A stretch of 55,084 nt of DNA from a virus. Taxonomy: Duplodnaviria > Caudoviricetes. Shown in pieces: positions 17,038 to 39,906 of this stretch (positions are counted from its first letter, which is position 1; the number at the start of each line of letters is the position of its first letter). The notes under the pieces are model-generated. The model ran no database searches, was not told the DNA's origin, and saw only the letters and a list, made by a program, of their open reading frames with translations. The stretch is from positions 1 through 55,084 of the IMG/VR virus record IMGVR_UViG_3300037194_000008, one strand, 5' to 3'. The translations under genes were made by a program, and so were the position numbers.

Positions 17038-17239
17038 ATGCAGTCACCCTCAAGGTGACTACACATTCTTCCCATCGTTCCAGTCTTTTTCCCTGGTGTA
17101 GTCATGCAGTCACCCTAAAGTCGGTAACCCCTGTGAACTCACACTCTTTTTACAAGGTGACTGCTGACTACATTCCTAATTTCCCCTGCAATTGCAGAGG
17201 GAAACCGCAGTCACCCAGGGGGTGACTGCATGACTGCAT
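17038..17239. repeat. Palindromic cassette, copy A (nested TG(C/T)AGTCA(CCC) inverted repeats)
   Basis: Three inverted-repeat units; collinear with 39695-39906. Confidence 0.9.
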
Positions 17240-17875
17240 CTAGACACGAGCTCCCACTCGTGCTAGTCGATGCTCCTCGTTGTATATGGAGACAGCTTGA
17301 ACTCTCTGATCAGGGCGACGGCTGATGCCGTCTCTCGTCCGCTGACGACGCGCACATGCTTGTGCGCTCACACTGCTGTGTGCTCCAAAGAAGAAGGCTA
17401 TTTGGAGAAGGGAAAGGGGGAAAGAGAAAGAGAGCAAAGCTCTCAAGGTAAGTAGCTATCTCATCTAGAACTTCAGCAGTTGCAGCGCCTCACACGCTCC
17501 TGCTCACCACCACCGGTTGCGCACCTCTATCGAGTGCTGCGGTCTGCCGGTGGTCAATCTTCACAGCTCCCGAGACCAGTGCTGCAGCGAGGTCAACGGC
17601 GTGATCGGTCGCGTGAGTAACCGAGCAGGGCACCGTGTTCGCTGATGACAACACACGGATCGTTGGCCGTCCGAATAAGACGAGCAAATGCTGGAGCAGG
17701 GAGGTGCCGGTTACCGCACACTCCCTGCTCTGGCTACCGATCTTCACGATGGGAGGTGATCCGTCATGTCCCGCCGGCCAAAGACCGGCAACCAAACGAC
17801 TCAGTCGTTTCAATCCCAGCCAGGCTAGAAGGCGTTGTATAGACCTTCCTGGCTGGGACTGTGACAACTGAATAC
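17240..17875 (+). ncRNA. Candidate highly structured non-coding RNA or long leader
   Basis: No credible ORF; stems at 17240-66, 17509-54, 17694-730 (10 bp perfect), 17794-810, 17814-58 (11 bp perfect); strand inferred from context. Confidence 0.4.
17864..17874 (+). promoter_or_regulatory. ACAACTGAATA motif, copy 1 (boxA-like)
   Basis: Identical 11-mer at 19502-19512; both intergenic, after a stem-loop and before a GAAGGGA RBS. Confidence 0.5.
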
Positions 17876-17906
17876 CGCTCACACACCTACCTAGAAGGGA
17901 ACGCTG

Positions 17907-18008
17907 ATGCGTTACAACGAGCTGTACGACCTGGCACTGGACATCACCGCTGATCCGCGTGACGCACAGCTGCTGTTCGACACGATGGCAACGAACGAGG
18001 ACTGGTGA
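17907..18008 (+). CDS. Small hypothetical protein (33 aa)
   Basis: GAAGGGA RBS, MRYNELYDLALDITADPRDAQLLFDTMATNEDW, abuts next start. Confidence 0.65.
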   Translation: MRYNELYDLALDITADPRDAQLLFDTMATNEDW

Positions 18009-18009
18009 C

Positions 18010-18318
18010 ATGATCACCGTGGCCGAGGCGTGGCACATCTTCATCGGTGGAATGCTGGGTGGCTTCGTGCTCGGAGCTCTGCTCAGCATCGCCGTCTACC
18101 ACGGTGCGCTGGCCAAGGCCGAGCGCGCCTACGACGCAGTCGTTGACAAGTACAACGAGCTCGTCAAGACCATCGCCACACCTGCTGCATTGCTCTTCAA
18201 GTGCAACAGTTGTGACTTCATCACAGCTGAGCGTCGTGTAATCCACGACCATGCTGCAGTTCTCGGCCACCATGGGTGGTCACGAATGAAGCCAACTTCA
18301 ACCATCCAGGGAGGATGA
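18010..18318 (+). CDS. Membrane protein with C-terminal C2H2-like zinc finger
   Basis: ATG 18010; hydrophobic IFIGGMLGGFVLGALLSIAVY, short coiled coil, C-x2-C-x12-H-x5-H. Confidence 0.7.
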   Translation: MITVAEAWHIFIGGMLGGFVLGALLSIAVYHGALAKAERAYDAVVDKYNELVKTIATPAALLFKCNSCDFITAERRVIHDHAAVLGHHGWSRMKPTSTIQGG

Positions 18319-18319
18319 C

Positions 18320-18745
18320 ATGGGTCTTCAGACTCTGCTCAATGATCACACCGCAGCCTGCCGTGAGCTCGGCAAGGTCGAGCTTCACTTCCAGCAGGGC
18401 CATGCCTCGCAGGATGAGCTCGAAGCAGCTCGCGCCGCGGCTCACAAGACGCAGGCCGCCATGATCTTGGCGGTCAACGCCAAGCCCGCACCTCTGCCGG
18501 CCGAAGACCAGCCTGCTGGTCACGAGCACGACTCCTCGTGCGGTCACACCGCCGAGAACACGGTCAGGGTTGGTTACATCCTGATCGAGTCGTTCATCGG
18601 CGAGGACAGCGGCAACGTCCTCCACATGGAGACGCACGATGGGAGTCACAATCCCATCCAGTTCGACCTCGCCATGATGATGATGACCGAGGCAGCTGGC
18701 ATGCTCCTCGTCGAGATGTTTGGTAGCGATGGACCCGAAGTCTGA
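18320..18745 (+). CDS. Hypothetical protein
   Basis: 141 aa, GGAGG RBS, tight packing. Confidence 0.75.
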   Translation: MGLQTLLNDHTAACRELGKVELHFQQGHASQDELEAARAAAHKTQAAMILAVNAKPAPLPAEDQPAGHEHDSSCGHTAENTVRVGYILIESFIGEDSGNVLHMETHDGSHNPIQFDLAMMMMTEAAGMLLVEMFGSDGPEV

Positions 18746-18881
18746 GGTCGCCGTCGTCTCCATCCTCGTCGTGTTCGCAGCGATGTGGTTGCTGCTTCTC
18801 ATCGACTCCGGCCTACGCCGGATCGCAGCGAAGAAGCGACCACGTCACCGATCTTGGCGGTGGTACCACTACCGCTGGTAA
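18729..18881 (+). CDS. Small membrane protein (50 aa)
   Basis: MDPKSEVAVVSILVVFAAMWLLLLIDSGLRRIAAKKRPRHRSWRWYHYRW; one TM helix plus basic tail. Confidence 0.55.
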   Translation: MDPKSEVAVVSILVVFAAMWLLLLIDSGLRRIAAKKRPRHRSWRWYHYRW

Positions 18882-18952
18882 TACCTGGCCGGCCCCGCTT
18901 GCTCATACCTTGCGGGGCTGGTCAGCTCCAACCTCACACACAAGGAGTTGTC

Positions 18953-19390
18953 ATGGGCACACCTGCCCTCGTGCTGCTGATCATCACCGTGCTGCTCATC
19001 CTGGCTGCACTGTTCAGCATCAAGAAGTCCGACGAAGCGGGCATGCCCGTCGCCGGCGCACTCGCATTCGGTGCACTGTTCACGTTGGTCCTGACCTGCA
19101 TCGCAGGCTGGCTCACCTTCGCTCCCGAGTACCGCCTGTACAAGGCGAACATCGAGAAGCGGATCATCGTGACGCAGGCCATCGCCGAAGCGGACGCCGA
19201 CAAGGAGTACGCCCGCGGCGAGATCGAACGTGCCAAGGGCACAGCCTCGGCCAACAAGATCGTGGCCGGCTCGATCACCGAGCAGTACCTCAGGTACCTC
19301 TTCGTCAACAACCTCAAGCTGACCAAGAACCAGATCGTGTACATCCCGACCGAAGCCGGGTTGCCGATCCTCGAGGCAGGCAAGAGGTAA
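18953..19390 (+). CDS. Membrane protein resembling the C-terminal part of band-7/SPFH proteins
   Basis: ATG 18953 after AAGGAG; two TM helices then EIERAKGTASANKIV...YLRYL...IVYIPTEAGLPILEA. Confidence 0.7.
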   Translation: MGTPALVLLIITVLLILAALFSIKKSDEAGMPVAGALAFGALFTLVLTCIAGWLTFAPEYRLYKANIEKRIIVTQAIAEADADKEYARGEIERAKGTASANKIVAGSITEQYLRYLFVNNLKLTKNQIVYIPTEAGLPILEAGKR

Positions 19391-19501
19391 CGACCTCACG
19401 AACTCAGCCATCGTGGAAGCTGGCACCATCGACTCCACATCAGCGGCTTAGAGCCCACTGAGTCGAGCGCAACAGACTGCCACAGGCTGATGCTGTAACC
19501 C

Positions 19502-19512
19502 ACAACTGAATA
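19502..19512 (+). promoter_or_regulatory. ACAACTGAATA motif, copy 2 (boxA-like)
   Basis: Identical to 17864-17874; preceded by catcagc...gctgatg stem. Confidence 0.5.
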
Positions 19513-19551
19513 ACAATCGAATACCGAACACTCATCTCTGAAGGGAGAACC

Positions 19552-19800
19552 ATGGCCAAGGACCAGAAGTCCGAGAAGCCCAAGCGCACGGTCGCCACTC
19601 CGGCCGAGCGAGTTGCCAAGCTCGAGGCCGAGCTGGCTGCAGCGCGTGAGCGCGTGCACGCCAAGGACAACAAGCTCATCGCCGTCCTGTCCGAGCGCAT
19701 GGACAAGCGAGCCCTCAAGATCGAGGACCTCGCATCGAAGCAGGCCGAGGATCAGGTGGCGCTCGACGCCGCCCGTGCTCGCGTCGGCGCCGAGTCCTGA
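19552..19800 (+). CDS. Hypothetical coiled-coil protein
   Basis: 82 aa, GAAGGGAG RBS. Confidence 0.8.
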   Translation: MAKDQKSEKPKRTVATPAERVAKLEAELAAARERVHAKDNKLIAVLSERMDKRALKIEDLASKQAEDQVALDAARARVGAES

Positions 19801-21967: not shown

Positions 21968-21997
21968 CCGTAGGTCCAACACAAGAAGGGAGATGCA

Positions 21998-26062: not shown

Positions 26063-28295
26063 GGATGGGCAGCGGTTGAAGGACTGGATCTATGACCCAG
26101 CCCGAGACCAGTACCAGAACCAGAACACCGGAGCAGTCATCACCTCACAGCAGATGATGAAGGCAGACATGGAGTTCCTCATGAACGATCAGTACAAGCC
26201 GCACATCGGTCTCGACTTCGAGACCTACGGATCGGTGGATCTCCCGAAGCACGGGCTCTACCGATACGTCGATGACGAGTACTTCCGTCCCCTGGTTGCG
26301 TGTCTCTACACACAGGAGCCGGGCCAGTTCCGAGAGACGGAGCTGGACTTCGTCAACAACCCGGTCACCGCAGAGAACGAACTGCGGTACGCCATCAAGG
26401 GCAAGATCATCATCGCTCACAACGTCCCGTTCGAGGCAGCAGTGCTGGCACGCATGGGCATTGAGCACCCGATCGAGGACTTCATTGACTCGGCGGTGGT
26501 GGCCCGAGCAGCCGGTGCCGGCAGCAAGCTGGAAGCAGCTGCGCCCCAACTCCTGGGCACCGACAAGATGGCTGAGGGTTGGCCACTCATCAAGCTGTTC
26601 TCCATGCCTGGCAAGTACCAGGAGAAGAACGGTTGCATGGACTTCGATCCTGCCATCGTGGCTGATCATCCAGATGAGTGGTTGCAGTTCATCAAGTACT
26701 GCACCCTCGATGCGAAGCTCAGCTTCGGCATCGTGTTCGAGTACCTCAAGCTGTTGTCTCCAGCCGAGCTGCAGTTCCACACCCTGACCCTGCGCATGAA
26801 TGGCACGGGTTGGAATGTGGATCTCGACTTGGTCAAGGAGATGCAGCGCCGGTACCTCGAGAACCTGGAGTACCTGGAGCAGGACTTCCGCGAGCGCACT
26901 GGTGCCAAGGACCTCAACCTCAACAGCCACCCACAACTGGTGGCGTGGTGCAAGGACCGAGGCATCATGGCCAAGAGCTTCGACGAGAAGAACTGCACCA
27001 AGTTGCGAAACCGAATCGTCGAGCGACTGCAGCAAGGCAACCTCAAGAAGGCACAGCGTGAAGCCTACGAAGAGGTAGTCATGATGCTGACCTGCAAGAA
27101 GGAGCTCGGTGGTTCCAGCTTGAAGAAGCTGCAGACCATCCTCGACACCGTCGCCAACGACGGCCGGCTCCGTGATCAGTACCTCCACTGTGGTGCAGGG
27201 CAAACGCTCCGCACCACTGGTCGGTCAGTCCAGATGCAGAACCTCAAGCGTCTCGGTGCTGAGCCCGACGAAGTGGAAGAGCTGTTCAACGATCAGTACT
27301 TCTGGAACAACGAGAAGCTGGCTCGCAATCTGAGGCAGGTCTTCTGTGCTGAAGATCCGAACGGTGTTCTCATCGTCGGTGACTTCAGCTCCGTCGAAGC
27401 ACGAGGCCTGGCTTGGATGGCGGGTGAGGAGTGGAAACTCTCAGCCTTCCGGAACAACCAGGACCTGTACAAGGTGGCGGCAGCCAGGCAGTACAGCATT
27501 GCCATCGACGCTGTGACCAAGGAGCAGCGTCAGTTCGGCAAGGTCGGTGAGCTCAGCTGCGGTTACCAGGCAGGGCCTGGTGCAGTGAAGGACTTCGCCG
27601 AGAACATGGGCGTGATCCTGTCCGAAGCTGAGGCGGCCAAGGTCGTGTCGGATTGGCGTGATGCCAACCCGAACATCGTCAAGTTCTGGTACCGACTGGA
27701 CGGCATGCTTCGCAATTGTGTGGAGTTCCACACTGCCAGCGAGCTGCATCTTCCAGACGGTTTCAAGATCGTGATCAAGCCGATGGCCACACCTGCATCA
27801 CTGCAGAAGCTGGCGCCGGACTCGGCAGTCTCCGTCTCGGTTGAGGTAGTGCACGATGTGCACGGCCTCTTCCTGCGTCGGGTGTTCCTGGGCTGCCACT
27901 TCATCGGCAAGAGCATCAGGTACTACAAGCCGAGCGAGCGGAAGACCGGAGATCTCTGGCGTCCTCAAGGCACTGACCCGAAGACGGGCAAGCCGCGGGA
28001 CTACACGATCTACGGTGGCAAGCTGGCCGGCATCCTGACGCAGTCGTTCTGCCGTGAGCTGTTCTTCCGTGTGGCCCTGAACGTACAGCGGTGGTGTGAC
28101 AGCACCATCAACGTGCGCATGATCGGCCAGTTCCACGACGAGCTGGTGCTCGAGTTCAGCACACCGGAGAGCGGTCACGCTGTTGGCCGGCGCGAAGCGG
28201 AAGTCTCGCTGAGGAAGATGATGTCGGACGCTGGCATCGTCACGTCGTTCCCATTGGCAGCCGATGTCCACTCGGACTATCGGTACATCAAGTGA
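26037..28295 (+). CDS. polA: DNA polymerase, family A
   Basis: Exo motifs LDFETY, AHN..FE, YC..D; TGR...QN, motif A DFSSVEAR, motif B RQFGKVGELSCGY, motif C HDE; alternative start 26181. Confidence 0.95.
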   Translation: MSKRFLTSEDGQRLKDWIYDPARDQYQNQNTGAVITSQQMMKADMEFLMNDQYKPHIGLDFETYGSVDLPKHGLYRYVDDEYFRPLVACLYTQEPGQFRETELDFVNNPVTAENELRYAIKGKIIIAHNVPFEAAVLARMGIEHPIEDFIDSAVVARAAGAGSKLEAAAPQLLGTDKMAEGWPLIKLFSMPGKYQEKNGCMDFDPAIVADHPDEWLQFIKYCTLDAKLSFGIVFEYLKLLSPAELQFHTLTLRMNGTGWNVDLDLVKEMQRRYLENLEYLEQDFRERTGAKDLNLNSHPQLVAWCKDRGIMAKSFDEKNCTKLRNRIVERLQQGNLKKAQREAYEEVVMMLTCKKELGGSSLKKLQTILDTVANDGRLRDQYLHCGAGQTLRTTGRSVQMQNLKRLGAEPDEVEELFNDQYFWNNEKLARNLRQVFCAEDPNGVLIVGDFSSVEARGLAWMAGEEWKLSAFRNNQDLYKVAAARQYSIAIDAVTKEQRQFGKVGELSCGYQAGPGAVKDFAENMGVILSEAEAAKVVSDWRDANPNIVKFWYRLDGMLRNCVEFHTASELHLPDGFKIVIKPMATPASLQKLAPDSAVSVSVEVVHDVHGLFLRRVFLGCHFIGKSIRYYKPSERKTGDLWRPQGTDPKTGKPRDYTIYGGKLAGILTQSFCRELFFRVALNVQRWCDSTINVRMIGQFHDELVLEFSTPESGHAVGRREAEVSLRKMMSDAGIVTSFPLAADVHSDYRYIK

Positions 28296-28349: not shown

Positions 28350-28808
28350 ATGATTCTCGTGACAGGGGTAGACCCTGGCCTGGTCGACACAGGCATCGTG
28401 CACTTCTCGTTCTATCCCGAGAGCAAGGAGATCAAGGTCGCTCCGACCACTGACCTCCGTGAGCTCGTGGATCGGAACCAGAAGCGCAAGTACTTCATCG
28501 AGGGCTACCGTCCTCGCGCTCACATGAGCACCGACAAAGACATGGTCGAGCTCGTGGCTCACATCAGACAGATGTGCAAGGGCACGGTCCTCGACAACAC
28601 CGGCGTCAAGAAGATCGTCGGCCAGCCGTTGATGGAACTGTTGGGAGTGTGGCTGTTCAAGCAGACCACGCACCACCAGGACCTGAGGTCGGCCGCGCGC
28701 ATCGCCATCCTGGGCATGCTCAAGGACGAGGAGATGAACGAGCTCATCGCTGACATCGTGAGGGATCACCTGGAAGGGAAGCCCTGGCATGTCGTGGTAC
28801 TCGACTGA
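28350..28808 (+). CDS. RuvC-like Holliday junction resolvase
   Basis: GVDPGLVDTG, FIE, HQDLRSAARIA. Confidence 0.75.
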   Translation: MILVTGVDPGLVDTGIVHFSFYPESKEIKVAPTTDLRELVDRNQKRKYFIEGYRPRAHMSTDKDMVELVAHIRQMCKGTVLDNTGVKKIVGQPLMELLGVWLFKQTTHHQDLRSAARIAILGMLKDEEMNELIADIVRDHLEGKPWHVVVLD

Positions 28809-28986
28809 CGTCAACCAACAACCATGCGCTCTCACGTTGAGAGCCACCAAGGAAGATTGCGCTCGGTGTCTGTTCACCGATCGCTGCCTGGCAGACACGC
28901 TCGAGCTCGAAGAGCTGATGGGCGAGCCGCGGTCAGGTATCTTCGGAGGACTCACACAATCGGAGCGGGCTCAGCTTGCTTCGTAG
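28789..28986 (+). CDS. WhiB-like transcription factor (compact)
   Basis: C-x10-C-x2-C-x5-C and GIFGGLT..ER (canonical G[IV]WGG); points to an actinobacterial host. Confidence 0.7.
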   Translation: MSWYSTDVNQQPCALTLRATKEDCARCLFTDRCLADTLELEELMGEPRSGIFGGLTQSERAQLAS

Positions 28987-31287: not shown

Positions 31288-32685
31288 ATGCTGGAGCTCA
31301 AGACCAAGCAGGCATTGGCAAAGGAGGCTCACTCCTTGGCCGGCAGTTGCAGCCTGGTCCGGTATCACAACCAGACCTACATGCCGGTGGACTTCGAGTC
31401 CATGGAGTACGACCCTCCGCCGGAGCCCGATCGCACCATCTGGGTACCAATGACCCAGGACAAGCTGCGGCGTGTGGCAGCGAAGCAGTACGACACCTTG
31501 TTCGGTAACGATGCTGAGCTCCGCAACTTCGAGTTCATGGTTGCTCAGAACTCCGATCACAAGGATCGACAGATCTCACACCTGTTGATCAAGACCGCCG
31601 ACGGACTCAAGCTGCTGTCCGACTCGGGTGAGCTGAAGGATGTCGATGGCCAGTTCGTTCCGAACGCCATCGTTCCTAAGCTCAACACCAAGAAGAAGGA
31701 CAAGGACCGTGTGCTCAAGGTGATCCAGGAGTGGGTCGGCTCCAAAGAGGAAGCCGAGTCATTGCTGTACCACCTGGCCACAGCACTTGCTCCTGGCTGG
31801 TCAGCCGTGAAGTACATCATCCTTCTGGGTGAGGGACGCAACGGCAAGAGCGTGTTGCTCAAGATGTTGATGGCTTTGTTCGGAAGAGAGAACGTCTCGT
31901 CCGTCACTCGCCAGCACATCAGTGAGCGCAGCCCGGTAGTCACAGATCTCAATGGCAAGCTGCTGAACATCGTCTTCGATGGTCAGTCCACGTACCTCAA
32001 GGACTCCGGTGACGAGAAGTCACTGGTGGCCGGCGAGACCGTGGCAGTGAAGAAGCTGTACGAGTCGACACCAGTCCTGGTGCAGACGACAGCACTCTTC
32101 ATCGAGGGCCTCAACCGGGAACCGAAGAGCCACGACAAGAGCTCAGCGTTGCAGAAGCGGATCGTCCGCTTCCTGTTCCCCAACACCTACGAGCTCGACC
32201 ACAAGTTCGAGCGCGAGATGTTGAGCGAGGATTCTCTCGGCGCCTTCCTGTCGATTCTCATCGACCACTACGTCAAGGAAGACGAGGCAGCTGCGAAGCT
32301 GGCACCAACGAAGCAGGCGCTCGAGCTACAGCTGGAGCACATGTTCGTCAACTCGGTCGGACTGCAGTTCCTGAAGTACGTCGAAGAGACGGACGTCGAA
32401 GGTGCTGTCGGTTTGCTGGAGATCGCCATGCCCGACCTGGTGCAACGGTTCCAGTCGTGGCGCGTGAGGGAGAACGACCTCAGTACATGGGCAGAGCCCG
32501 ACGTGCTGGCGCTGTTCAACTCACTGGTCAACACAGAGCGCAGGACGAAGGGCCGTGTCGGTGGTACACCGCGCAAGGTCCGAGTGCTGACCTCATTCAA
32601 GCCCGAAGCCCGGGCATTCCTCGACAGCCTCATGGAAGGAGCTGACGATGAGCAAGCCCTCGAAGCTGCCCTGGTGGCAGACTGA
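31288..32685 (+). CDS. Superfamily 3 (D5-like) replicative helicase
   Basis: GEGRNGKS, LNGKLLNIVFD, KSLVAGE, ALQKR. Confidence 0.85.
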   Translation: MLELKTKQALAKEAHSLAGSCSLVRYHNQTYMPVDFESMEYDPPPEPDRTIWVPMTQDKLRRVAAKQYDTLFGNDAELRNFEFMVAQNSDHKDRQISHLLIKTADGLKLLSDSGELKDVDGQFVPNAIVPKLNTKKKDKDRVLKVIQEWVGSKEEAESLLYHLATALAPGWSAVKYIILLGEGRNGKSVLLKMLMALFGRENVSSVTRQHISERSPVVTDLNGKLLNIVFDGQSTYLKDSGDEKSLVAGETVAVKKLYESTPVLVQTTALFIEGLNREPKSHDKSSALQKRIVRFLFPNTYELDHKFEREMLSEDSLGAFLSILIDHYVKEDEAAAKLAPTKQALELQLEHMFVNSVGLQFLKYVEETDVEGAVGLLEIAMPDLVQRFQSWRVRENDLSTWAEPDVLALFNSLVNTERRTKGRVGGTPRKVRVLTSFKPEARAFLDSLMEGADDEQALEAALVAD

Positions 32686-33502
32686 CGAGTACGTCTCGGA
32701 CGAGCCGGTGCCGGAAGCATTCCGTCGCCACGCTGGTCCGGAAGGTGTGGCCTTGGTCCGGGCCTGGCCGAGCGGTATCACCGACTCAGGCTGGGGTCTC
32801 ATCCCCGGCAAGGATGGTGGCACCTTCCCCGGCAAGTACAAGGACGGAGCGTTCAACGAGCGCCGCGTCGTGTACGGATTCAACCACGACCGCTGGGCCT
32901 TCGCCTTCGTGATGCGTTCGGTGTCAATGATCTGCATCGACATCGACGGCAAGAACGGTGGACTCGAGCACGCCAAGCGGCTCGGCATCCTCCCGGTCAC
33001 GTTGGCCGAGACCAGCAAGAGTGGCGATGGGTACCACCTGTTCTACACGGTGGACGAGGAGTGGACTGAGACAGGCTTCGGCTTGCTCAGCGATCGAATC
33101 GGCATCGAGCAGGGAGTGGACATCCGGGCAACCGGCTGCGTCTACCACTACCCGTCGCAACGGTGGAACGGGCGTCAGCCTGTGCCACTGCCGGAGCATC
33201 TCTACGAGCAGCTCCGTCACCGCGAACAGAAGATCGCGGCGAGCCAAGCGAGGATTCAGAAGGTCCTCGACTCCGACGATGAGATGGAGATTCTCATGAT
33301 GCACGACGAACTGATCGCCGAACTCAACAAGCCGATCCCGCAGGGCAAGCGCAACAACTCGCTGTTCGCCATCGGGTCACAGATGAAGGAGGCTCGGATC
33401 GAGAACTGGGAAACGCTGGTCACTCAGCGTGGCCTGGACCTCGGTCTCGACGCCGATGAGCTCGACAAGCTCATCAACAACATCGCGCGCTACGCGGCGT
33501 GA
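32648..33502 (+). CDS. Bifunctional primase-polymerase (AEP) with PriCT-like C-terminus
   Basis: IDID, SKSGDGYHLFY, GVDIRA, C-terminal GKRNNSLF. Confidence 0.85.
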   Translation: MSKPSKLPWWQTDEYVSDEPVPEAFRRHAGPEGVALVRAWPSGITDSGWGLIPGKDGGTFPGKYKDGAFNERRVVYGFNHDRWAFAFVMRSVSMICIDIDGKNGGLEHAKRLGILPVTLAETSKSGDGYHLFYTVDEEWTETGFGLLSDRIGIEQGVDIRATGCVYHYPSQRWNGRQPVPLPEHLYEQLRHREQKIAASQARIQKVLDSDDEMEILMMHDELIAELNKPIPQGKRNNSLFAIGSQMKEARIENWETLVTQRGLDLGLDADELDKLINNIARYAA

Positions 33503-33575: not shown

Positions 33576-34133
33576 ATGGTTTCACACACACCTGGCGCCA
33601 AGAGGCGTATGGAGGAGAGGTTGAAGGGGCACCTCGACCGCAACCCCGAGGCGGCGTTGCGGTCGACACCTCGGCTCGCTCGCAACGACCGGACCACCCG
33701 TGCCAAGAAGGTGGTGGTGTTGCTGCCTGAACGTCGTGAGGATTATCTGATCCGCGAGGACGAGGCCCTCGTCTACTGGGAGCGCGAGGTCCGGCGTTAT
33801 GTCGACAAGGTCGTAGACCCTGTCCACGGGGACAGAATCGCCGCTCCCATGGTCTATGCCTGGAGCATGGGCCAAGAGATCGGCGCCGCGCCTGCGGAGG
33901 GCGGAGAGGGCGATTTGGCCCGCCTCAGGGGCAGCGGCGGCGTGGTCAACCCGGAGCTGCGCCGGATCAACAAGATCCTGCGCCATTACTTCGGTGCGCC
34001 GTACCGCTCGTTCATCCAGGGCCGGCAGTACCCGAACACCTATCGGGTGCACAAGGGCTACTACATCAAGTACCAGCCGCCGATGACGCTGACGCTGTAC
34101 GCCGAGTACCTGCTGAAGGTGCTCGTGCCTTAG
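33576..34133 (+). CDS. Hypothetical basic protein, possibly DNA-binding
   Basis: 185 aa Arg-rich ORF, isolated after the terminator, convergent with the late arm. Confidence 0.7.
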   Translation: MVSHTPGAKRRMEERLKGHLDRNPEAALRSTPRLARNDRTTRAKKVVVLLPERREDYLIREDEALVYWEREVRRYVDKVVDPVHGDRIAAPMVYAWSMGQEIGAAPAEGGEGDLARLRGSGGVVNPELRRINKILRHYFGAPYRSFIQGRQYPNTYRVHKGYYIKYQPPMTLTLYAEYLLKVLVP

Positions 34134-34239
34134 CGGGCTCCACCCACGAGCATGAGGATCAGCTCGACGGTGAACCAGAGAGCGCCGGCGATGTAGAACC
34201 AAGCGGACAGGAAACCTACTGCGTTGGGATTCATACTCT

Positions 34240-34554
34240 TCACAGTCGCATGCTTTCCGGCTCACGGTCAAGCTGCTCCTGATCGGAGATCGACCCTCCC
34301 TCGATGCGCTGGAAGACCAGGTTGATCGACGACAGGTCCTTGGCCATGATCGCCTGGAGGATCAGATCCGCGGCTGTGTGGTCCAGCACGTCCTTGCTGT
34401 CCTTCCAGATGGCTTGCACCTGACCGAACCGCTGGTTCCACAGCCACATGATCCTGGTGTCCAGGCTGGCCTGGTGGCTCTTGGGGATGCTGCTGCGGTA
34501 CGCCCTTCGCACCGGCACAGGCAGCGGCGCTGCGGTCGTGGCGAGCTCAGTCAT
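34240..34554 (-). CDS. Hypothetical protein (terminase small subunit candidate)
   Basis: 104 aa, GAGGAGG RBS, in terminase operon; function is a positional guess. Confidence 0.7.
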   Translation of the reverse strand: MTELATTAAPLPVPVRRAYRSSIPKSHQASLDTRIMWLWNQRFGQVQAIWKDSKDVLDHTAADLILQAIMAKDLSSINLVFQRIEGGSISDQEQLDREPESMRL

Positions 34555-34870
34555 TGACTTCCTCCTCAGAAAAATTTTCAGCCGGTGCGATCTGCTTCTC
34601 TGTGAGGTCGATGAACTCGAGCTCTACCGATTCACGGGTGGCCGGGTGGGAGCCGGCACGGCGCCGGCCGACCAGTCGATTGAAGATCATGGTGCGCGCC
34701 TTGTTCGCTCGACTCAGTGAACCACGGACGTCGGGGTCGGCACTGTTGGCGATCTCGAACAGCGTGCGGGCGATGAGCTCATGCGTGGGTACCTGCGTGA
34801 GCTCAGTCGTCTGCATCGTTGGGTAGTCGGCAGCACGCTGCAGCGCCTGCTTGATGGTGACGTGCCTCAT
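34547..34870 (-). CDS. Hypothetical protein (terminase small subunit candidate)
   Basis: ATG 34870, 107 aa, helical; function is a positional guess. Confidence 0.7.
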   Translation of the reverse strand: MRHVTIKQALQRAADYPTMQTTELTQVPTHELIARTLFEIANSADPDVRGSLSRANKARTMIFNRLVGRRRAGSHPATRESVELEFIDLTEKQIAPAENFSEEEVND

Positions 34871-34983: not shown

Positions 34984-35150
34984 CTTCGTCCCCTACTCGT
35001 GAGGTGCCATGCTCCGCACTTGGGGCAGCGGTAGCACCTGCATTCTCGTCTCTTCCTGTTGCCGCGGTTGGCTTTCAGTACTGCGTCGACGATAGCCATC
35101 CGTGCGCCGATCTCGTCGAACTTGACCTTCTGACACTTCTCATCGCTCAC
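34980..35150 (-). CDS. Small zinc-binding protein (56 aa)
   Basis: GTG 35150; RCYRCPKCGAWHLTS. Confidence 0.65.
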   Translation of the reverse strand: MSDEKCQKVKFDEIGARMAIVDAVLKANRGNRKRRECRCYRCPKCGAWHLTSRGRR

Positions 35151-36673
35151 CGCCAGACTCCCGTCCAATCCTCGGTGTAGTTGACCGCCTCCTGCGGAGC
35201 ACCCGATGGGTTGTCGTACAGCTGGCGCCCGAAGAAGTCGAGCTCCTTGGTGGCCTGGACCGCATAGCGGTAGGCGTCCATCATGTGCGAGTACTTGTCG
35301 TGCAGCGGCTTGCTGGTCCATTCCTGGAGCTTGGTGTTGAACTCGTACTTGTAGTTCTCCAGGCACTCCAGGAACCACTGGCAGTTGCCAGGATCGACGG
35401 CGCTGCCCGGGATCAGGAGGCCCGACTCGAGCTCGATGTCCGCCTCTGGGTTGGCGTGGATGATCGTGTTGTACAGATTCATCCGACCCTGCTGGATGTC
35501 CGTGATCAGATCGAAGTCTCCCTGCCGAGAGCCGGGGATCTTCCAGACCTTGTTGCTCTTGGCCAGCACGGCGACGTTGGGGAACTTCTTCCTCATCATG
35601 TCGGCCGGCGTGGTGTTGACCGCCTTCTCGTGGTGGTCGCCATCCCAGGGCAGGATCATCAGGGCCACCCGGTTGAACCAGTGCTTCTCGCGCAGCAGGT
35701 CCACGTACTCGGGCAGCGCACGCCCGTGGCCCTCGCCGCAGTCGTAGATGAACATGCGGTTGTTGAACCACTGGAAGGCGATCCAGGCTGTGGCGTCCGA
35801 GTGGATGCCGGAGGCGCCGATGTCGAACACCACGTAGACCGGGTAGTCGGGGTGGAGGTTGAAGATGTGCGCGCGCTTGTCCGCGAGCAGCTGCATGTAC
35901 GCCTCGCCGTAGACAGCCGCGGCGTCCATCTCCTCGAACGAGCAGTGGTACTCCTGCTCGAACATGCGGTCGTTGCCGAACCGCTTCAGGTACGTGTGGC
36001 GCAGGCGCTCGAGCTCAGCCTCGGTGAGCACCGGCGGCAGGCCGTGCTCCTTCATCATGGCGTTGATGTCGTCGATGGTCCGGATGATGACCTGGGCCTC
36101 GGGGTTGTGCTTGACCGACTCCATCAGCTGCCACAGCGGGTTCTTCCGCCGGCCACGCGGAGTGCTCACGGCCATCAGCCGCTTCTTCTCAGCTCGGTTC
36201 TCGAGGATGGGGAGCAGACGCGGGATCGGGTCTTCCTTGGAGAACAGCGCGAGCTCGGTGATCGTGTAGTCCTGGAAGGACGTGCCGACACCGGACTTGT
36301 CCTGGCCGCTCTGGAAGTAGCCCTGGAGCTTGAGCCGGCTCTTGTTCGAGAAGCGGCCCTCCATGACGGTGGCTTTCCAGTCGACGAGCTCGGGCGGCAC
36401 GTTGTCCTGCAGGCCCTGGATGTACTGCTGGGTCACCGGGTCGATGTAGGTCTTGTCCCAGAGGATGTCCCGGATCATCGGGTTGTTCAGGCTGATGTAG
36501 ACGCCTGTGGTCTTGGGCGTGCGGAGGCGGGCCTCGCACTGCTCCATGGATGCTGCGACGTCCTTGCCCGTCTGGCGTGGCAGGACGGCAATGCCGTACC
36601 TCTTCGAGCGCCACATCTGGTGGAGCTCGGCTTGGTAGGGCCGTGGCCGATAGTAAACCGGGAAGACGGCCAC
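35147..36673 (-). CDS. terL: Terminase large subunit
   Basis: PRPYQ, RQTGKD (Walker A), TITE (Walker B), STPRG, FEQEY, nuclease FDIG...DATA, HMMDAYRY. Confidence 0.9.
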   Translation of the reverse strand: MAVFPVYYRPRPYQAELHQMWRSKRYGIAVLPRQTGKDVAASMEQCEARLRTPKTTGVYISLNNPMIRDILWDKTYIDPVTQQYIQGLQDNVPPELVDWKATVMEGRFSNKSRLKLQGYFQSGQDKSGVGTSFQDYTITELALFSKEDPIPRLLPILENRAEKKRLMAVSTPRGRRKNPLWQLMESVKHNPEAQVIIRTIDDINAMMKEHGLPPVLTEAELERLRHTYLKRFGNDRMFEQEYHCSFEEMDAAAVYGEAYMQLLADKRAHIFNLHPDYPVYVVFDIGASGIHSDATAWIAFQWFNNRMFIYDCGEGHGRALPEYVDLLREKHWFNRVALMILPWDGDHHEKAVNTTPADMMRKKFPNVAVLAKSNKVWKIPGSRQGDFDLITDIQQGRMNLYNTIIHANPEADIELESGLLIPGSAVDPGNCQWFLECLENYKYEFNTKLQEWTSKPLHDKYSHMMDAYRYAVQATKELDFFGRQLYDNPSGAPQEAVNYTEDWTGVWR

Positions 36674-36688
36674 GGTCCTACCTCCTTG

Positions 36689-36793: not shown

Positions 36794-36801
36794 GGTTCCT
36801 C

Positions 36802-37029: not shown

Positions 37030-37100
37030 CGCTTCACCTTGATGTCCTGGCACCCGCAGGTGGACTGGTTGCACTTGCACGCACACGTTGCTGGGCACAT
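37026..37100 (-). CDS. Cys-rich, metallothionein-like mini-protein (24 aa)
   Basis: MCPATCACKCNQSTCGCQDIKVKR; starts just after the upstream stop (TGAcATG) and overlaps the next start (ATGA). Confidence 0.55.
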   Translation of the reverse strand: MCPATCACKCNQSTCGCQDIKVKR

Positions 37101-37101
37101 G

Positions 37102-38172
37102 TCAGATCCTGATGTTCTCGTAGCCCTTGCCGATGGTGCCGAACAGGGTGGAGTAGTCCTCCTCCTGTGAGGCGGCACCGGCCTTGGAGACGACGCCGGC
37201 CTGCGGCGGGTCCTCCTTCGGCTTCGGCTCTGTCGTCTTGTCGTCGTCCGGCTTCGGCTCGTCGGCCTTGGGCGCGGGCTTGGCTGCCCGGTCCGCTGCC
37301 ACCTGCGCACGGATGTTGTTGACCAGGCCCTGGACTGGGATCGACCAGCCGTGGAGCTTGCCTTCGACCCGCATCTCGTACGGCTGTGCCATCTTGACGA
37401 AGGCATCGGCCAGCTCCTTGTCGAAGGTGGCTGAGCCGGGCACGAGATCCGGGTTGTTTTGGAACAGCTCGAGGCTGGCATGCGCCGTCTCGAACAGCGC
37501 CGAGTTCTCTTCGATCGCCTTGGTCGCACGAGACGAGACCTCTTCGACGAGGAGCTGCTTCGTGGCGTCCTGCCATTCCTTGGCGTCCGCGGAGTCCTTG
37601 AGCCGCTCCATCCCCTTGCCCGTGGTGCTGGGTACCTCGACACCGACGAGCATCCGGGGGTGGAGCTCGATGGCCTCGAAGTGCTTGGGGAATTCCTTGC
37701 GGACCTCGTCGAGTGCGTCGTCCTTGAAGGACTTGGTCACCTTCTCCTCGAAGGCCGTGCTCAGTTCCCCGAGCTCGGTCTTCAGCTGGGTAGCGTCCTT
37801 CGTCCAGTTCTCAGGTCGGTCTCCACCGGCACCCGCATCTCCAGCCGCCTGTGATCCGACTGATTCTCCGGTGTCACCGGCAGCCCCCTCAGCCGGTACC
37901 TCCGGCTTTCCGTCCTCTCCTGCAGCCGGTGCTCCAGCATCTGCTGGCTTTGGCTCAGTTCCTTCAGGAGCAGCAGCTGCCGATCCTGTTGCACCAGCAT
38001 CAGCTGCAGCCGCAGCTCCTCCCTCGGCAGCCTTCTCGTCACCCTCTTCAGCGACCAGCGTGTCCATGAGAGCAGCAAACGCTGCGTCACCCTGAGGCGG
38101 AAGAACGATGGCGTCCTTGTCGTCGTCCGCTGCCGGAGGCGCGTCAGTTGCAGCCGGAGCGTCCCCACTCAC
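37102..38172 (-). CDS. Probable capsid scaffolding protein
   Basis: 356 aa; acidic disordered N-terminus, helical core, Pro/Lys linker, short terminal helix; function inferred from composition. Confidence 0.5.
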   Translation of the reverse strand: MSGDAPAATDAPPAADDDKDAIVLPPQGDAAFAALMDTLVAEEGDEKAAEGGAAAAADAGATGSAAAAPEGTEPKPADAGAPAAGEDGKPEVPAEGAAGDTGESVGSQAAGDAGAGGDRPENWTKDATQLKTELGELSTAFEEKVTKSFKDDALDEVRKEFPKHFEAIELHPRMLVGVEVPSTTGKGMERLKDSADAKEWQDATKQLLVEEVSSRATKAIEENSALFETAHASLELFQNNPDLVPGSATFDKELADAFVKMAQPYEMRVEGKLHGWSIPVQGLVNNIRAQVAADRAAKPAPKADEPKPDDDKTTEPKPKEDPPQAGVVSKAGAASQEEDYSTLFGTIGKGYENIRI

Positions 38173-38831
38173 CGGTCACCCCTGAATTCCTGGAGCGCCT
38201 CCTGGAGCTCGAGCTGATCGTCCTCGGTGAAGACGAACCCGATCTGGTCGAGGAAGTTCACCAGGCCGGTCTGGCTGAAGAACATCTTGTGGACCTCGGA
38301 GATCGCCGCGAGTTCGATGTGGGCATGCTTGTGGGTGCAGTCCCAGTCGAGCTCCCACTGCAGAATCGCCTGCTGCCAGAGCAACAGGAGGTTCTTGTAG
38401 ACGTCGGCGTTTTGCTCCCGGTCGGCCTCGGCATCGAGGTGCGACAGCGGGTCGTTGTCCGGCGTGCGAGCGGCTTCGATCTCCGCCTCGAGGATCGCGC
38501 TGAGCTCAGCGATCTTGCCGAAGTACCGATCCCGGTAGACCTCCATCTCCTGGACCGAGATGGCCGGCCAGGTCGACGTGACCCGGGAAGCCCACTGCGG
38601 CTGGACGCGCTTGATGGCCTCGTCCTTGGCCGGAGCGATCACTTCGCGCCACACCTGCAGAAGCGTGTGGTAGGTCGGAGGCTCGGCGAGCAGCTTGGCC
38701 AGATCGTTCTGGTCCTGCTCGGTGAACTCGGTGCTCTCCTCGACCAGCCTCAGCGGAGCCGCTGTTGCTTCGGCGGTGGGGGCAGCGACAGTCGCGTTGC
38801 CCTCGTCGTCGGTGATGATGTCATCGGACAT
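38169..38831 (-). CDS. Hypothetical acidic protein (220 aa)
   Basis: ATG 38831 after GAGGGG; overlaps neighbours. Confidence 0.75.
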   Translation of the reverse strand: MSDDIITDDEGNATVAAPTAEATAAPLRLVEESTEFTEQDQNDLAKLLAEPPTYHTLLQVWREVIAPAKDEAIKRVQPQWASRVTSTWPAISVQEMEVYRDRYFGKIAELSAILEAEIEAARTPDNDPLSHLDAEADREQNADVYKNLLLLWQQAILQWELDWDCTHKHAHIELAAISEVHKMFFSQTGLVNFLDQIGFVFTEDDQLELQEALQEFRGDR

Positions 38832-39579
38832 TTGGGATTCCCCTCGCTGCGAGCATGCGCTCGCGATCTTCATCTTCGATCGCCTGGATGACGGATCGGA
38901 TGTCGTAGCACAGCACGTTCTCGACGTACTTGCGCTTGACCTGCCACGGCACCCGCTCGGGTCCACCGTAGAAGTTGTTGACCTCGAAGAAGTCGAAGCC
39001 CTCGGACCCGTTGTAGCAGACCACCTTGAAGGGGAACCGCGGGTCCTTGTAGATGCCGACCTGGTAGGACGGCAGTGTGATGCGGACTTCCGAAGGCCGG
39101 CTCTCTGAGCCAGCCACTTCGAACTCCTCGACGTAGTCGCCGTTCTGGGTCGTGACCTTCTTCACGCCCGGGTCGTTGTAGCGCAGCACGCGCCGGCCAC
39201 GAGGCTTGGCGAAGCTCGGCTTCGTCACTTCCTCCTGGTACCAGATGCGGCCGGTCTCCGGGTCTGTCCGGATCGGCTCGTCATCGGCGAGCGTGTTGAG
39301 TCGCTGACCCGCCACCTCGTTGGGATCTCGAGGTGCGACGGGCGGTGGCCGGCGCGTCGGACCCTTGTCGACCGGAGGGACCGAAGAGGACGCCTGAGAC
39401 GATGTGGGTCGCGGCGCCCTCTCCGGAGCCGGAGGTGTGGGTGCGGCTACTGGCTGTTCAGGCTGCTTGAAGCGGCGGTCATACTCACGCTGCAGGTCTT
39501 CGCCCTTGAGGTTGACGTACGGGGCATCGAACTCGAACCCGTCTTCCTTGAGCGCCTGGTAGAGCTCGTGCTTCTTCAT
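38821..39579 (-). CDS. Hypothetical protein (252 aa), first gene of the scaffold/terminase operon
   Basis: ATG 39579 after TAAGGA; Pro-rich linker. Confidence 0.75.
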   Translation of the reverse strand: MKKHELYQALKEDGFEFDAPYVNLKGEDLQREYDRRFKQPEQPVAAPTPPAPERAPRPTSSQASSSVPPVDKGPTRRPPPVAPRDPNEVAGQRLNTLADDEPIRTDPETGRIWYQEEVTKPSFAKPRGRRVLRYNDPGVKKVTTQNGDYVEEFEVAGSESRPSEVRITLPSYQVGIYKDPRFPFKVVCYNGSEGFDFFEVNNFYGGPERVPWQVKRKYVENVLCYDIRSVIQAIEDEDRERMLAARGIPNVR

Positions 39580-39616
39580 GCTGGTCCTTAGGTGAGTCAG
39601 AACTTCGTTCTGCTGC

Positions 39617-39645
39617 AATGTAGCACCAACTGAAAGCTTTGACAT
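39617..39645 (-). promoter_or_regulatory. Candidate SigA-type promoter
   Basis: ATGTCA-17 nt-TACATT with extended -10 TG, about 40 nt upstream of ATG 39579. Confidence 0.4.
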
Positions 39646-39694
39646 CAGATGCCGGCACATGGGGCGTGTCGGTTGAGCGGCGCGGTTCGGGGGC

Positions 39695-39906
39695 ATGTAG
39701 TCACCCCCGAGGGTGACTGCGCTCTGGCCCTGGAACCGCAGCAAAAAATTCAGCTGTAGTCATGCAGTCACCCCAAAGCCGGTAACCCCTGTCACTACTC
39801 ATCTATTTTTGAGGGTGACTGCTGACTACATCAACGATTTTCCCTGGAATGGCAGGGCAAAACCGCAGTCACCCCCGCCCTGACTGCAGGGTGACTGCAT
39901 GACTGC
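39695..39906. repeat. Palindromic cassette, copy B
   Basis: Collinear homolog of 17038-17239, same orientation. Confidence 0.9.

What the first reader, a model, noticed from the sequence alone, without database searches (positions are those of the whole stretch)
17038..39906. Twin ~200-bp cassettes of nested inverted repeats, 22.7 kb apart (17038-17239 and 39695-39906)
Seen: both copies share the same order of parts: a short hairpin (G[C/T]AGTCACC..GGTGACT), TGTAGTCATGCAGTCACCC, AAAG.CGGTAACCCCTGT, a T-run, GGTGACTGCTGACTACAT, TT.CCCTG.AAT.GCAG, AAACCGCAGTCACCC, and GGGTGACTGCATGACTGC. The repeat units are nearly invariant while spacers diverge in sequence but mostly keep their length, which implies selection rather than recent duplication. 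Both are intergenic: A precedes the early/replication arm, B precedes the scaffold/terminase operon. Inference: a multi-site protein-binding or cruciform element. Options are hairpin promoters for the putative virion RNAP (by analogy with N4 vRNAP promoters), dual iteron-type origins, packaging signals, or recombination sites that would split the circle into ~22.7 and ~32.4 kb. Together with the giant protein this is the best candidate for an undescribed system.
Basis: partly seen in the sequence, partly recalled or inferred. Interest (0 to 1): 0.85.

Follow-up and report, generated by a model that had tools for sequence, protein, structure and literature searches.

The report
Twin iteron arrays, probable replication origins
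The two 200-bp cassettes are real and look like a pair of replication origins: clusters of short protein-binding repeats facing inward around an AT-rich gap, a known kind of element that has not been described for this group of soil phages.

Summary
Cassette A (17038-17239) and B (39695-39906) share the same order of parts. All 9 exact GCAGTCACCC copies in the 55-kb circular phage genome lie in them. Repeat columns are conserved far better than spacers (77/11 against 66/60, p=3.5e-8).

The phage is an uncultured relative of the Microbacterium podophages Burro, Arete and Cluster EK. Every relative examined has an A-type cassette with its own motif. All 10 genomes with a TGTAGWCACC-type motif also have a B cassette carrying the same motif as their A, and 5 of 5 GTAAC-type genomes lack B.

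The shared core is at least 2 repeats on each side, pointing inward, around a 44-90-nt AT-rich gap (23 of 24 cassettes). This is the layout described for SaPI origins (PMC9371898).

The genome encodes a P4/SaPI-type SF3 primase-helicase whose C-terminal 135 residues model as a winged helix. That segment is the one that differs most between motif classes, out of 208 protein windows.

Best reading: dual iteron origins, confidence 0.5, with no binding or replication data. Main rival: operator or enhancer arrays, because a conserved promoter-like TGCTACNNT lies between B and the next gene. The hairpin-promoter and recombination-site readings are poorly supported.

The parts
17040..17062 (.). A, outer palindromic site: GCAGTCACCC, 4 nt, GGTGACTAC (one repeat each way)
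17097..17115 (+). A, left arm of the core: two tandem repeats TGTAGTCA + TGCAGTCACCC pointing right
17116..17154. A, central gap. In one search it measures 45 nt between 6-nt repeat cores, GC 0.47 against 0.63 for the genome. Holds AAAGTCGGTAACCCCTGT and a T-run. Proposed unwinding region.
17155..17172 (-). A, right arm of the core: two tandem repeats pointing left (AGGTGACTGC + TGACTACA)
17180..17206 (.). A, conserved non-repeat block TTTCCCCTGCAATTGCAGAGGGAAACC (local hairpin), function unknown
17207..17237 (.). A, outer site: GCAGTCACCC, AGG, GGGTGACTGC + ATGACTGC (one repeat right, two left)
39697..39720 (.). B, outer palindromic site: GTAGTCACCC, CCGA, GGGTGACTGC
39755..39773 (+). B, left arm of the core: TGTAGTCA + TGCAGTCACCC
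39774..39812. B, central gap. In one search it measures 45 nt between repeat cores, GC 0.51 against 0.63 for the genome. Holds AAAGCCGGTAACCCCTGT and a T-run.
39813..39830 (-). B, right arm of the core: GGGTGACTGC + TGACTACA
39838..39864 (.). B, conserved non-repeat block TTTTCCCTGGAATGGCAGGGCAAAACC
39865..39906 (.). B, outer site: GCAGTCACCC, a 14-nt gap holding an extra TGACTGC, then GGGTGACTGC + ATGACTGC
31288..32685 (+). P4/SaPI-type SF3 primase-helicase (465 aa), proposed initiator. Residues about 331-465 (32278-32682) model as a winged helix.
32648..33502 (+). Prim-Pol (AEP) primase-polymerase, partner gene next to the helicase
   Evidence: PF09250, 3.7e-8
39617..39625 (-). TGCTACATT, an extended -10-like element between B and the next gene. 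Conserved at this junction in relatives.
38821..39579 (-). First gene downstream of B (252 aa, unknown function). It heads the block that ends with the terminase (35147-36673). Its homolog is the conserved neighbour of B in relatives.

Best explanation
Each cassette is an iteron-type replication origin. It is an array of 9-10 copies of a roughly 10-bp site (G-Y-A-G-T-C-A-C-C-C here, TGTAGWCACC in close relatives).

Proposed mechanism: the sites are read by the C-terminal winged-helix domain of the phage's own P4/SaPI-type SF3 primase-helicase (31288-32685). Two tandem sites on each side point inward across a 39-45-nt AT-richer gap. Helicase rings would assemble on both arms, melt the gap, and hand over to the adjacent Prim-Pol and the family A polymerase. 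The outer palindromic sites would add cooperative binding.

A is the ancestral origin at the early/late divergence point. B is a second copy acquired by one uncultured lineage, placed in the late region just upstream of the block that ends with the terminase. B would act either as a second origin or as an initiator-bound auxiliary site, as described for P4 crr (recalled) and SPP1 oriR.

Shown here: the architecture, its conservation, the matching motifs of A and B within each genome, the initiator-type gene, and its winged-helix model. Inferred: that this domain binds these sites, and that replication starts there.
For: 1. Layout. In 23 of 24 cassettes from 15 genomes there are at least 2 repeats on each side pointing inward around a 44-90-nt gap with GC 0.25-0.56, against 0.60-0.67 for the genomes. 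Tandem repeats are 8-12 bp apart in 60 of 68 neighbour pairs. The introduction of PMC9371898 (passages read) describes SaPI origins as 6-12 short iterons, an AT-rich centre, and at least two iterons on each side pointing in opposite directions, recognised by the winged helix in the Rep C-terminal domain.

2. Initiator-type gene. The 465-aa protein matches TIGR01613 'phage/plasmid primase, P4 family' (5.4e-20, below the curated cut-off), DUF5906, PHROG DNA primases (8.6e-30) and the solved SaPI5 PriRep chain 7OLA (8.4e-8).

3. Winged helix. The last 140 residues give an AF2 model with pLDDT 89.7 and a helix-turn-helix plus beta-hairpin wing. The listed structural matches are overwhelmingly winged-helix DNA-binding domains: TubR Z 7.0, MarR-type, RFX 6.2, Cdc6 5.9, Orc1 5.7, ASFV PrimPol 5.2, and the P4 origin-binding domain 1KA8 at Z 5.0, rmsd 2.6, 64 residues.

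4. Co-variation. The motif differs between genomes but is the same in A and B of each genome. Among 208 windows of 90 residues from all conserved proteins (the giant protein was left out), the two that best separate TGTAGWCACC-type from GTAAC-type genomes are residues 361-450 and 331-420 of this protein. Identity is 44.7% and 41.6% within classes and 19.3% between, a ratio of 2.31 against a median of 1.19. The N-terminal part of the same protein stays at 39-56% between classes.

5. Not base-pairing. Arms differ without compensation: position 2 gives C.A in the first hairpin of A and T.G in that of B, and G007 mixes TAGACA and TAGTCA within one cassette. All arms in a genome share one motif.

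6. Orientation is free. A and B are direct in G000 (score 143 against 53) and G003 (153 against 61), and inverted in G002 (49 against 118), G004 (45 against 162) and G001 (94 against 141).

7. Precedent for two origins. SPP1 has oriL and oriR of similar organisation, both bound by one initiator, and oriR interrupts the late genes (PMC6316719, passages read).
Against: - There is no binding, replication or read-depth evidence. The tool for sequencing runs could not be reached, so no coverage profile was obtained.
- The co-variation rests in effect on one evolutionary switch (TGTAGWCACC to GTAAC) that also follows phylogeny.
- Within the TGTAGWCACC class, no alignment column in this protein separates TAGTCA from TAGACA genomes.
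- The genome with the most deviant motif, G005 (TGTGACA), has a C-terminal domain that is no more divergent than that of G006, which has standard repeats.
- The structural Z scores are middling (below 8), so they show only the generic winged-helix fold. Foldseek found no match at E<=1e-3.
- Unlike SaPI, the origin is not next to the helicase gene: A is 14 kb upstream and B 7 kb downstream.
- GC skew shows no inflection at B.
- B always sits 40-97 nt upstream of a conserved promoter-like element, which fits a regulatory site equally well.
- A third protein segment, residues 151-240 of the 38169-38966 product, also separates the classes (ratio 1.91).
Confidence: 0.5

Rival explanations
1. The cassettes are operator or enhancer arrays for a phage DNA-binding regulator. 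The regulator could be the same winged-helix protein or another one. It would control promoters at operon boundaries: the early promoter at A and the promoter of the terminase-containing block at B. The two sites might loop together.
For: Both cassettes sit at the 5' side of transcription units. A TGnTAnnnT element lies 40-97 nt from the edge of B, between B and the next gene, in 7 of 10 genomes. The narrower TGCTA[CG]NNT occurs only 1-2 times per genome in 5 of 5 genomes searched, and one copy is always at this junction. The outer sub-sites are short-spaced palindromes of the kind dimeric regulators bind. A WhiB-like factor is encoded at 28789-28986, which suggests host RNA polymerase is used.
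Against: No regulator conserved across the group was found among the 41 proteins scanned with Pfam, the 20 scanned with PHROGs or the 10 with NCBIfam. A is inverted relative to its flanking genes in some genomes. The simple scan found no sigma-70-type promoter in 16100-18100 or 38900-40100. The inward-facing arrays around an AT-rich gap are not needed for an operator. GTAAC-type relatives express the same late block without B.
Confidence: 0.25
2. The cassettes are packaging recognition (pac) sites for the headful terminase. B is placed beside the packaging genes.
For: Relatives are circularly permuted headful packagers (PMC7302621 section 9, passage read; PMC13460095 Table 1). B adjoins the block that contains the terminase. 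Described pac and cosB sites are built from repeated small-terminase binding sites with a bend between them (recalled). A segment of the 38169-38966 product separates the motif classes (ratio 1.91).
Against: No small-terminase-like protein was found. The 38169-38966 product models as an all-helical protein with no PDB match at E<=1e-3. The Atlas gave no lead for it or for the 252-aa product. The terminase is the most conserved protein (61-80% identity), yet the repeats change between genomes. In GTAAC-type phages the only cassette lies about 20 kb or more from the terminase. Two pac sites per genome would be unusual.
Confidence: 0.08
3. The inverted repeats extrude as DNA hairpins that serve as promoters for a virion-carried RNA polymerase in the giant 4600-aa protein, as in phage N4.
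For: As single-stranded DNA the cassettes fold far better than shuffles (z -7.0 and -6.1). The simple scan found no sigma-70-type promoter nearby. The giant protein of Burro is virion-associated (PMC7302621 section 20, whole section read).
Against: The loop of the last hairpin is 3 nt in A and 14 nt in B. The arms carry uncompensated mismatches. Every arm has the same motif, which stems do not require. Cassette orientation flips between genomes. The giant protein has no Pfam match, and the paper reports no similarity or shared motifs with N4 vRNAP. A separate hairpin at 16904-16962, strictly conserved in sequence, would be a better candidate for a conserved polymerase.
Confidence: 0.05
4. The cassettes are res-like or other site-specific recombination sites that split, invert or resolve the circular genome.
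For: Each cassette has three inverted-repeat sub-sites with different spacings, which superficially resembles the three-sub-site res of Tn3/gamma-delta (recalled). In this window the two copies are direct repeats.
Against: Relative orientation is direct in some genomes and inverted in others, which would give opposite outcomes. None of the 41 proteins scanned with Pfam matched a recombinase, integrase or invertase family. GTAAC-type relatives have a single cassette. All four complete circular assemblies of twin-cassette genomes (the window, G001, G002, G007) keep both arcs in one contig.
Confidence: 0.03

Closest known systems
SaPI replication origins with Rep / PriRep (Staphylococcus aureus pathogenicity islands)
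   Same: Both have 6-12 short iterons, an AT-rich centre, and at least two iterons on each side pointing in opposite directions. Both have a self-loading SF3 helicase with a C-terminal winged helix, element-specific iterons, and a primase gene beside the helicase gene (PMC9371898, passages read). The window's helicase matches chain 7OLA at 8.4e-8.
   Different: SaPI iterons are 5-6 nt and lie immediately downstream of rep. Here the sites are about 10 bp and lie 14 kb and 7 kb from the helicase gene. There are extra outer palindromic sites and two cassettes per genome. The host element is a lytic actinophage. Binding has not been shown.
Phage P4 alpha protein with ori and crr
   Same: Alpha combines a primase, an SF3 helicase and a C-terminal winged-helix origin-binding domain (PMC2777425, passages read). 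TIGR01613 'P4 family' matches at 5.4e-20, and 1KA8 is among the structural matches at Z 5.0. That P4 has two separate iteron clusters (ori and crr, about 4.5 kb apart) bound by one protein, with crr working in either orientation, is recalled, not read here.
   Different: In P4 the primase is fused to the helicase and is DnaG-like. Here a separate Prim-Pol gene follows the helicase. P4 ori and crr differ from each other in layout, whereas A and B are colinear copies. The score is below the family's curated cut-off, and the fold match is generic.
Bacillus phage SPP1 oriL and oriR
   Same: SPP1 is a lytic phage with two origins of similar organisation (repeats plus an AT-rich unwinding element), about 13 kb apart on the circle and bound by one initiator. 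oriR sits in an intergenic segment that interrupts the late assembly genes, and it is proposed to stall forks and trigger the switch to concatemer synthesis (PMC6316719, passages read).
   Different: The SPP1 initiator gp38 is not an SF3 helicase, and a separate loader and a DnaB-type helicase are used. The SPP1 repeats are direct and oriL lies inside gene 38. Here the arrays are inverted and both cassettes are intergenic.
Phage N4 early hairpin promoters
   Same: Both are short inverted repeats in intergenic DNA of a podovirus that carries a giant virion protein.
   Different: Stem and loop geometry is not conserved between the two copies here. The motif changes between close relatives, orientation is not fixed, and no polymerase signature was found. 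The N4 promoter geometry (5-7 bp stem, 3-nt loop) is recalled.

Membership tests
Iteron origin of an SF3 (P4 alpha / SaPI Rep type) initiator | Array of 6-12 short repeated sites | tested here: met
   9 sites in A and 10 in B; 4-13 per cassette in 24 cassettes of 15 genomes
Iteron origin of an SF3 (P4 alpha / SaPI Rep type) initiator | AT-rich centre with at least two sites on each side pointing in opposite directions | tested here: met
   23 of 24 cassettes; gap 44-90 nt with GC 0.25-0.56 against genome 0.60-0.67. In the window the drop is modest (0.47 and 0.51 against 0.63).
Iteron origin of an SF3 (P4 alpha / SaPI Rep type) initiator | The same element encodes an SF3 helicase initiator with a C-terminal winged helix | tested here: met
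   TIGR01613 5.4e-20 (below cut-off), 7OLA 8.4e-8, winged-helix model with pLDDT 89.7
Iteron origin of an SF3 (P4 alpha / SaPI Rep type) initiator | Iterons and the initiator's DNA-binding domain are matched and element-specific | tested here: inconclusive
   The C-terminal domain is the top class-separating segment of 208. However, this reflects only one motif switch, and there is no finer correlation.
Iteron origin of an SF3 (P4 alpha / SaPI Rep type) initiator | Origin lies immediately downstream of the rep gene (SaPI rule) | tested here: not met
   A is 14 kb upstream and B 7 kb downstream of 31288-32685
Iteron origin of an SF3 (P4 alpha / SaPI Rep type) initiator | Initiator binds and melts the site, and the site supports replication | not testable with these tools
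   Needs gel shift or footprint, a plasmid origin assay and marker-frequency analysis
Dual origins of one phage genome (SPP1 oriL/oriR type) | Two distant sites of similar organisation carrying the same initiator-binding repeats, one of them within the late region | tested here: met
   A and B are colinear with the same motif, in 10 of 10 TGTAGWCACC-type genomes (9 show both cassettes; the G005 contig lacks the A region). B lies between late genes.
N4-type hairpin promoter | Hairpin of fixed short stem and 3-nt loop with conserved sequence, read by a virion RNA polymerase | tested here: not met
   Stems of 9-10 bp; loops of 3-5 nt in A and 4-14 nt in B; uncompensated arm differences. No polymerase signature in the giant protein. 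Absence of a Pfam match does not exclude a divergent polymerase.
res-type recombination site | Two sites in fixed (direct) orientation plus a cognate recombinase gene | tested here: not met
   Orientation is direct or inverted depending on the genome. None of the 41 proteins scanned with Pfam matched a recombinase family.
Any Rfam RNA family or tRNA | Match at the gathering score | tested here: not met
   0 Rfam matches and 0 tRNA genes in the window

The most novel reading that the evidence does not exclude
B may not be a second start site. It could be an initiator-bound control point that the uncultured lineage inserted into its late operon. Helicase rings parked on B would stall forks coming from A and trigger the switch from circle to concatemer replication, as proposed for SPP1 oriR. 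By looping to A, they could also time the adjacent TGCTACNNT promoter of the terminase block. Replication state would then directly gate packaging-gene expression.
Probability: 0.12. Interest if true: 0.7.

Novelty: new variant of a known kind. Interest (0 to 1): 0.4.

Why it matters
No origin of replication has been proposed for the Burro/Cluster EK group of actinobacterial podophages. The words 'origin of replication' and 'iteron' do not occur in PMC7302621. Searches for the group's names found only that paper, a genome announcement and an unrelated survey.

This work gives a concrete site and a candidate reader, both testable in cultured phages such as Burro or Arete. It also shows that a large uncultured lineage keeps two copies whose motif evolves in step.

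If confirmed, the natural series of matched motif and winged-helix pairs would be a useful set for studying how SF3 initiators change DNA specificity. The origins could also serve as parts for Microbacterium genetics. It does not look like a new kind of system.

Tried and rejected
- Exact search for the 18-nt arm in IMG/VR found no other contig.
- A single-protein search with the nozzle protein found no relative. Alignment-based searches were needed.
- A search of five relatives with the 71-aa small protein found nothing.
- GC and AT skew were uninformative, because AT skew simply follows gene direction.
- The TAGTCA against TAGACA partition gave no separating column in 21 of the 23 orthogroups tested. 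Prim-Pol had 1 and the giant protein had 2. This position appears to be tolerated, since G007 mixes both variants.
- Loci holding both the helicase gene and B carry only the two common motifs, so a wider motif-to-protein correlation could not be made.
- Minimum-energy folding of the cassettes is ambiguous because all arms can pair with each other.
- The protein Atlas gave no usable lead for the 252-aa and 265-aa products downstream of B.
- The model of the 265-aa product (pLDDT 91.1) has no PDB match at E<=1e-3.
- The look-up of sequencing runs was unreachable at every try, so read laying was never used and no coverage or read-end evidence exists.
- Complex prediction was not used, because it cannot model DNA.
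- Supplementary files of the papers were not opened. The supplementary figures of PMC7302621 could show repeats that I did not see.

Full report
**What is there**

The window is a complete IMG/VR phage record whose ends repeat (1-55 = 55030-55084), so it is a 55,029-bp circle or a circularly permuted genome.

Cassette A (17038-17239) and cassette B (39695-39906) align over their whole length with 78% mean column identity. Each one contains, in order:
- an outer palindromic site (one repeat each way, 4 nt apart);
- two tandem repeats pointing right;
- a 39-nt AT-richer gap;
- two tandem repeats pointing left;
- a conserved non-repeat block;
- a second outer site (one repeat right, two left).

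The repeat is G-Y-A-G-T-C-A, usually followed by CCC. All 9 exact copies of GCAGTCACCC in the record lie in the cassettes, and the pattern read backwards occurs 0 times. Repeat columns are 77 identical and 11 different between A and B. The other columns are 66 identical and 60 different (Fisher p=3.5e-8).

**Setting**

The phage is a distant relative of Microbacterium phages Burro and Arete, Cluster EK (Akoni, ArMaWen) and Arthrobacter phage MissAmericana. 58 GenBank records carry a portal homolog, all below 60% identity.

PMC7302621 (section 20 read in full) describes these as podoviruses with a gene of more than 13 kb for a virion-associated giant protein, and reports no similarity to N4 vRNAP. 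Its section 9 says they are circularly permuted headful packagers. It does not mention these repeats. 'Iteron' and 'origin of replication' occur 0 times in its main text. Its supplements were not seen.

Gene layout:
- From A leftwards run the giant gene (16209-2407), the portal and the virion genes. These wrap around the circle and end with the 1180-aa 'nozzle' gene (stop at 39927).
- From A rightwards run hypervariable early genes and the replication module: AAA ATPase, exonuclease, family A polymerase, SF2 helicase, a P4-type primase-helicase at 31288-32685, and Prim-Pol at 32648-33502.
- From B leftwards runs a six-gene block that contains the terminase (35147-36673). Its first gene starts at 39579.

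**Relatives**

In Arete, all 12 copies of GGTAACG lie within 250 bp at the spot equivalent to A. Burro, Akoni and MissAmericana likewise have one cluster there, each with its own motif (AGGTAACG, GCGTAACC, GTAACGA).

An alignment-based search with the terminase found 115 IMG/VR relatives, of which 80 loci were kept. I fetched ten contigs whole.

All ten genomes whose motif is of the TGTAGWCACC type have a B cassette with the same motif as their own A. These are the window plus G001-G008 and G010. In G003 and G006, B is reduced to the bare core of two repeats, a 44-55-nt gap and two repeats. The G005 contig lacks the A region. The five GTAAC-type genomes (G009, Arete, Burro, MissAmericana, Akoni) have zero repeat cores in the equivalent region.

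B is always just upstream of the homolog of the 39579 gene, even where 3-4 kb of other genes separate it from the nozzle gene, as in G001 and G007. Using a strict definition of the core module, 19 of 35 IMG/VR loci with at least 700 nt upstream of that homolog have it, against 0 of 216 control windows. Three further loci had clusters under a looser definition, so 19 is a lower bound.

**What the sites are**

The core common to 23 of 24 cassettes is at least two repeats on each side pointing inward around a 44-90-nt gap. Gap GC is 0.25-0.56, against 0.60-0.67 for the genomes. In G002 and G004 the gap is strikingly AT-rich. In the window the drop is modest (0.47 and 0.51 against 0.63). Tandem repeats are 8-12 bp apart in 60 of 68 cases.

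Three observations point to protein recognition rather than selected base pairing:
- All arms of a genome share one motif.
- Arms differ without compensation. The first hairpin has C.A in A and T.G in B.
- G007 mixes TAGACA and TAGTCA in one cassette.

The relative orientation of A and B is direct in some genomes and inverted in others. The function therefore does not depend on orientation.

**Who reads them**

The 465-aa product of 31288-32685 matches several primase-helicase references:
- TIGR01613, 'phage/plasmid primase, P4 family' (5.4e-20, below the curated cut-off);
- PHROG DNA primases;
- the solved SaPI5 PriRep chain 7OLA (8.4e-8).

Its last 140 residues, folded with a 51-sequence alignment, give a confident winged-helix model (pLDDT 89.7). 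Foldseek finds no match at E<=1e-3, and its weak top rows include Cdc6 and Orc1 winged helices. The exhaustive aligner lists overwhelmingly winged-helix DNA binders at Z 5-7, including the P4 origin-binding domain 1KA8 at Z 5.0. At these Z values only the generic fold is shown.

I scanned 208 windows of 90 residues from all conserved proteins, leaving out the giant protein. The two windows that best separate TGTAGWCACC-type from GTAAC-type genomes are residues 361-450 and 331-420 of this protein (ratios 2.31 and 1.96, median 1.19). The rest of the protein is ordinary in this respect. The only DNA element known to differ by class is the repeat, and the protein segment that differs most by class is this winged helix. 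This is one evolutionary switch, not a statistical series, and finer tests were negative.

**Comparison with known systems**

The introduction of PMC9371898 describes SaPI origins in terms that fit the core module almost word for word: 6-12 short iterons, an AT-rich centre, at least two iterons on each side pointing in opposite directions, read by the winged helix of a self-loading SF3 helicase. [quoted passage not shown]

P4 alpha has the same primase, SF3 helicase and winged-helix organisation (PMC2777425). That P4 uses two iteron clusters, ori and crr, is recalled.

SPP1 has two similarly built origins bound by one initiator. The second interrupts the late genes and is proposed to stall forks and trigger concatemer synthesis (PMC6316719).

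Differences here are longer sites, extra outer palindromes, cassettes far from the helicase gene, and two colinear copies.

**Main rival**

Between B and the next gene lies a TGnTAnnnT element in 7 of 10 genomes. Its narrower form TGCTA[CG]NNT occurs only 1-2 times per genome, and one copy is always at this junction (5 of 5 genomes). B therefore sits 40-97 nt upstream of a probable promoter, and an operator or enhancer role fits that placement as well. The two roles are not exclusive, because origins are often activated by neighbouring transcription and initiators often autoregulate.

I found no separate conserved regulator. The simple scan found no sigma-70-type promoter near either cassette. 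GTAAC-type phages run the same block without B.

**Other readings**

The packaging, hairpin-promoter and recombination readings each fail at least one direct test. Details are under the rival explanations.

**Verdict**

These are real, selected, lineage-wide binding arrays. They are most likely dual iteron origins for the phage's P4/SaPI-type primase-helicase (confidence 0.5), and nothing has been shown biochemically. They are a new variant of a known kind, of moderate interest.

Noticed in passing
window 16904-16962 (+): A single-copy hairpin element of about 60 nt (CTAGTCGCGTGACGYTTGCGCTCRGGCTACYGAGCGRCCGG) lies about 75 nt upstream of cassette A. It is about 92% identical to unannotated DNA of Arete and MissAmericana, although the proteins are only about 50% identical. 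It is present in 11 of 15 relatives at up to 4 mismatches of the 21-nt core. The inner stem shows compensatory changes (A-U to G-C in 3 of 11, G-C to A-U in 1 of 11). The RNA fold has z -3.4 and there is no Rfam family. It could be a structured RNA or a site for a conserved protein.
   Followed up: partly
window 16455-16490: An AT-rich block, TATACCCCCTATACATGTATATGTATGG, lies about 100 nt upstream of the small conserved gene 16585-16800 (+). It is conserved in all seven genomes checked. It is a candidate promoter region between the small gene and the giant gene.
   Followed up: partly
window 39617-39625 (-); G002 28984 (+) in my orientation: TGCTACNNT (extended -10-like) is rare, at 1-2 copies per genome. 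It is conserved at the junction between B and the next gene. In G002 a second copy follows a T-run just upstream of the homolog of the 185-aa gene.
   Followed up: partly
G003 33921-34801 and G006 27581-28121 (contigs oriented like the window): A different repeat, CAAGGGCGACA, occurs 10 and 6 times in the late region of two relatives. Whether it is coding or intergenic was not checked.
   Followed up: no
window 28789-28986 (+): A 65-aa WhiB-like factor (PHROG 472, 3.3e-6) lies within the replication module. Akoni gp07 is annotated the same way.
   Followed up: no
window 48818-49726 (-) and 49723-50928 (-): An alginate-lyase-like domain (6.7e-28) is followed by a protein that joins an M23 peptidase domain to a weak endonuclease/exonuclease/phosphatase domain. 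These are probably a depolymerase and a lysin.
   Followed up: no
window 17240-17900: About 670 nt without a convincing ORF lie between cassette A and the first early gene. The stretch includes a purine-rich tract (17395-17440) that also precedes the first early gene in MissAmericana.
   Followed up: no
window 17907-19800 (+): The first early genes after A have no homologs in the other 14 genomes at E<=1e-5, while genes from 19800 onward are shared. This looks like a hypervariable early region.
   Followed up: no
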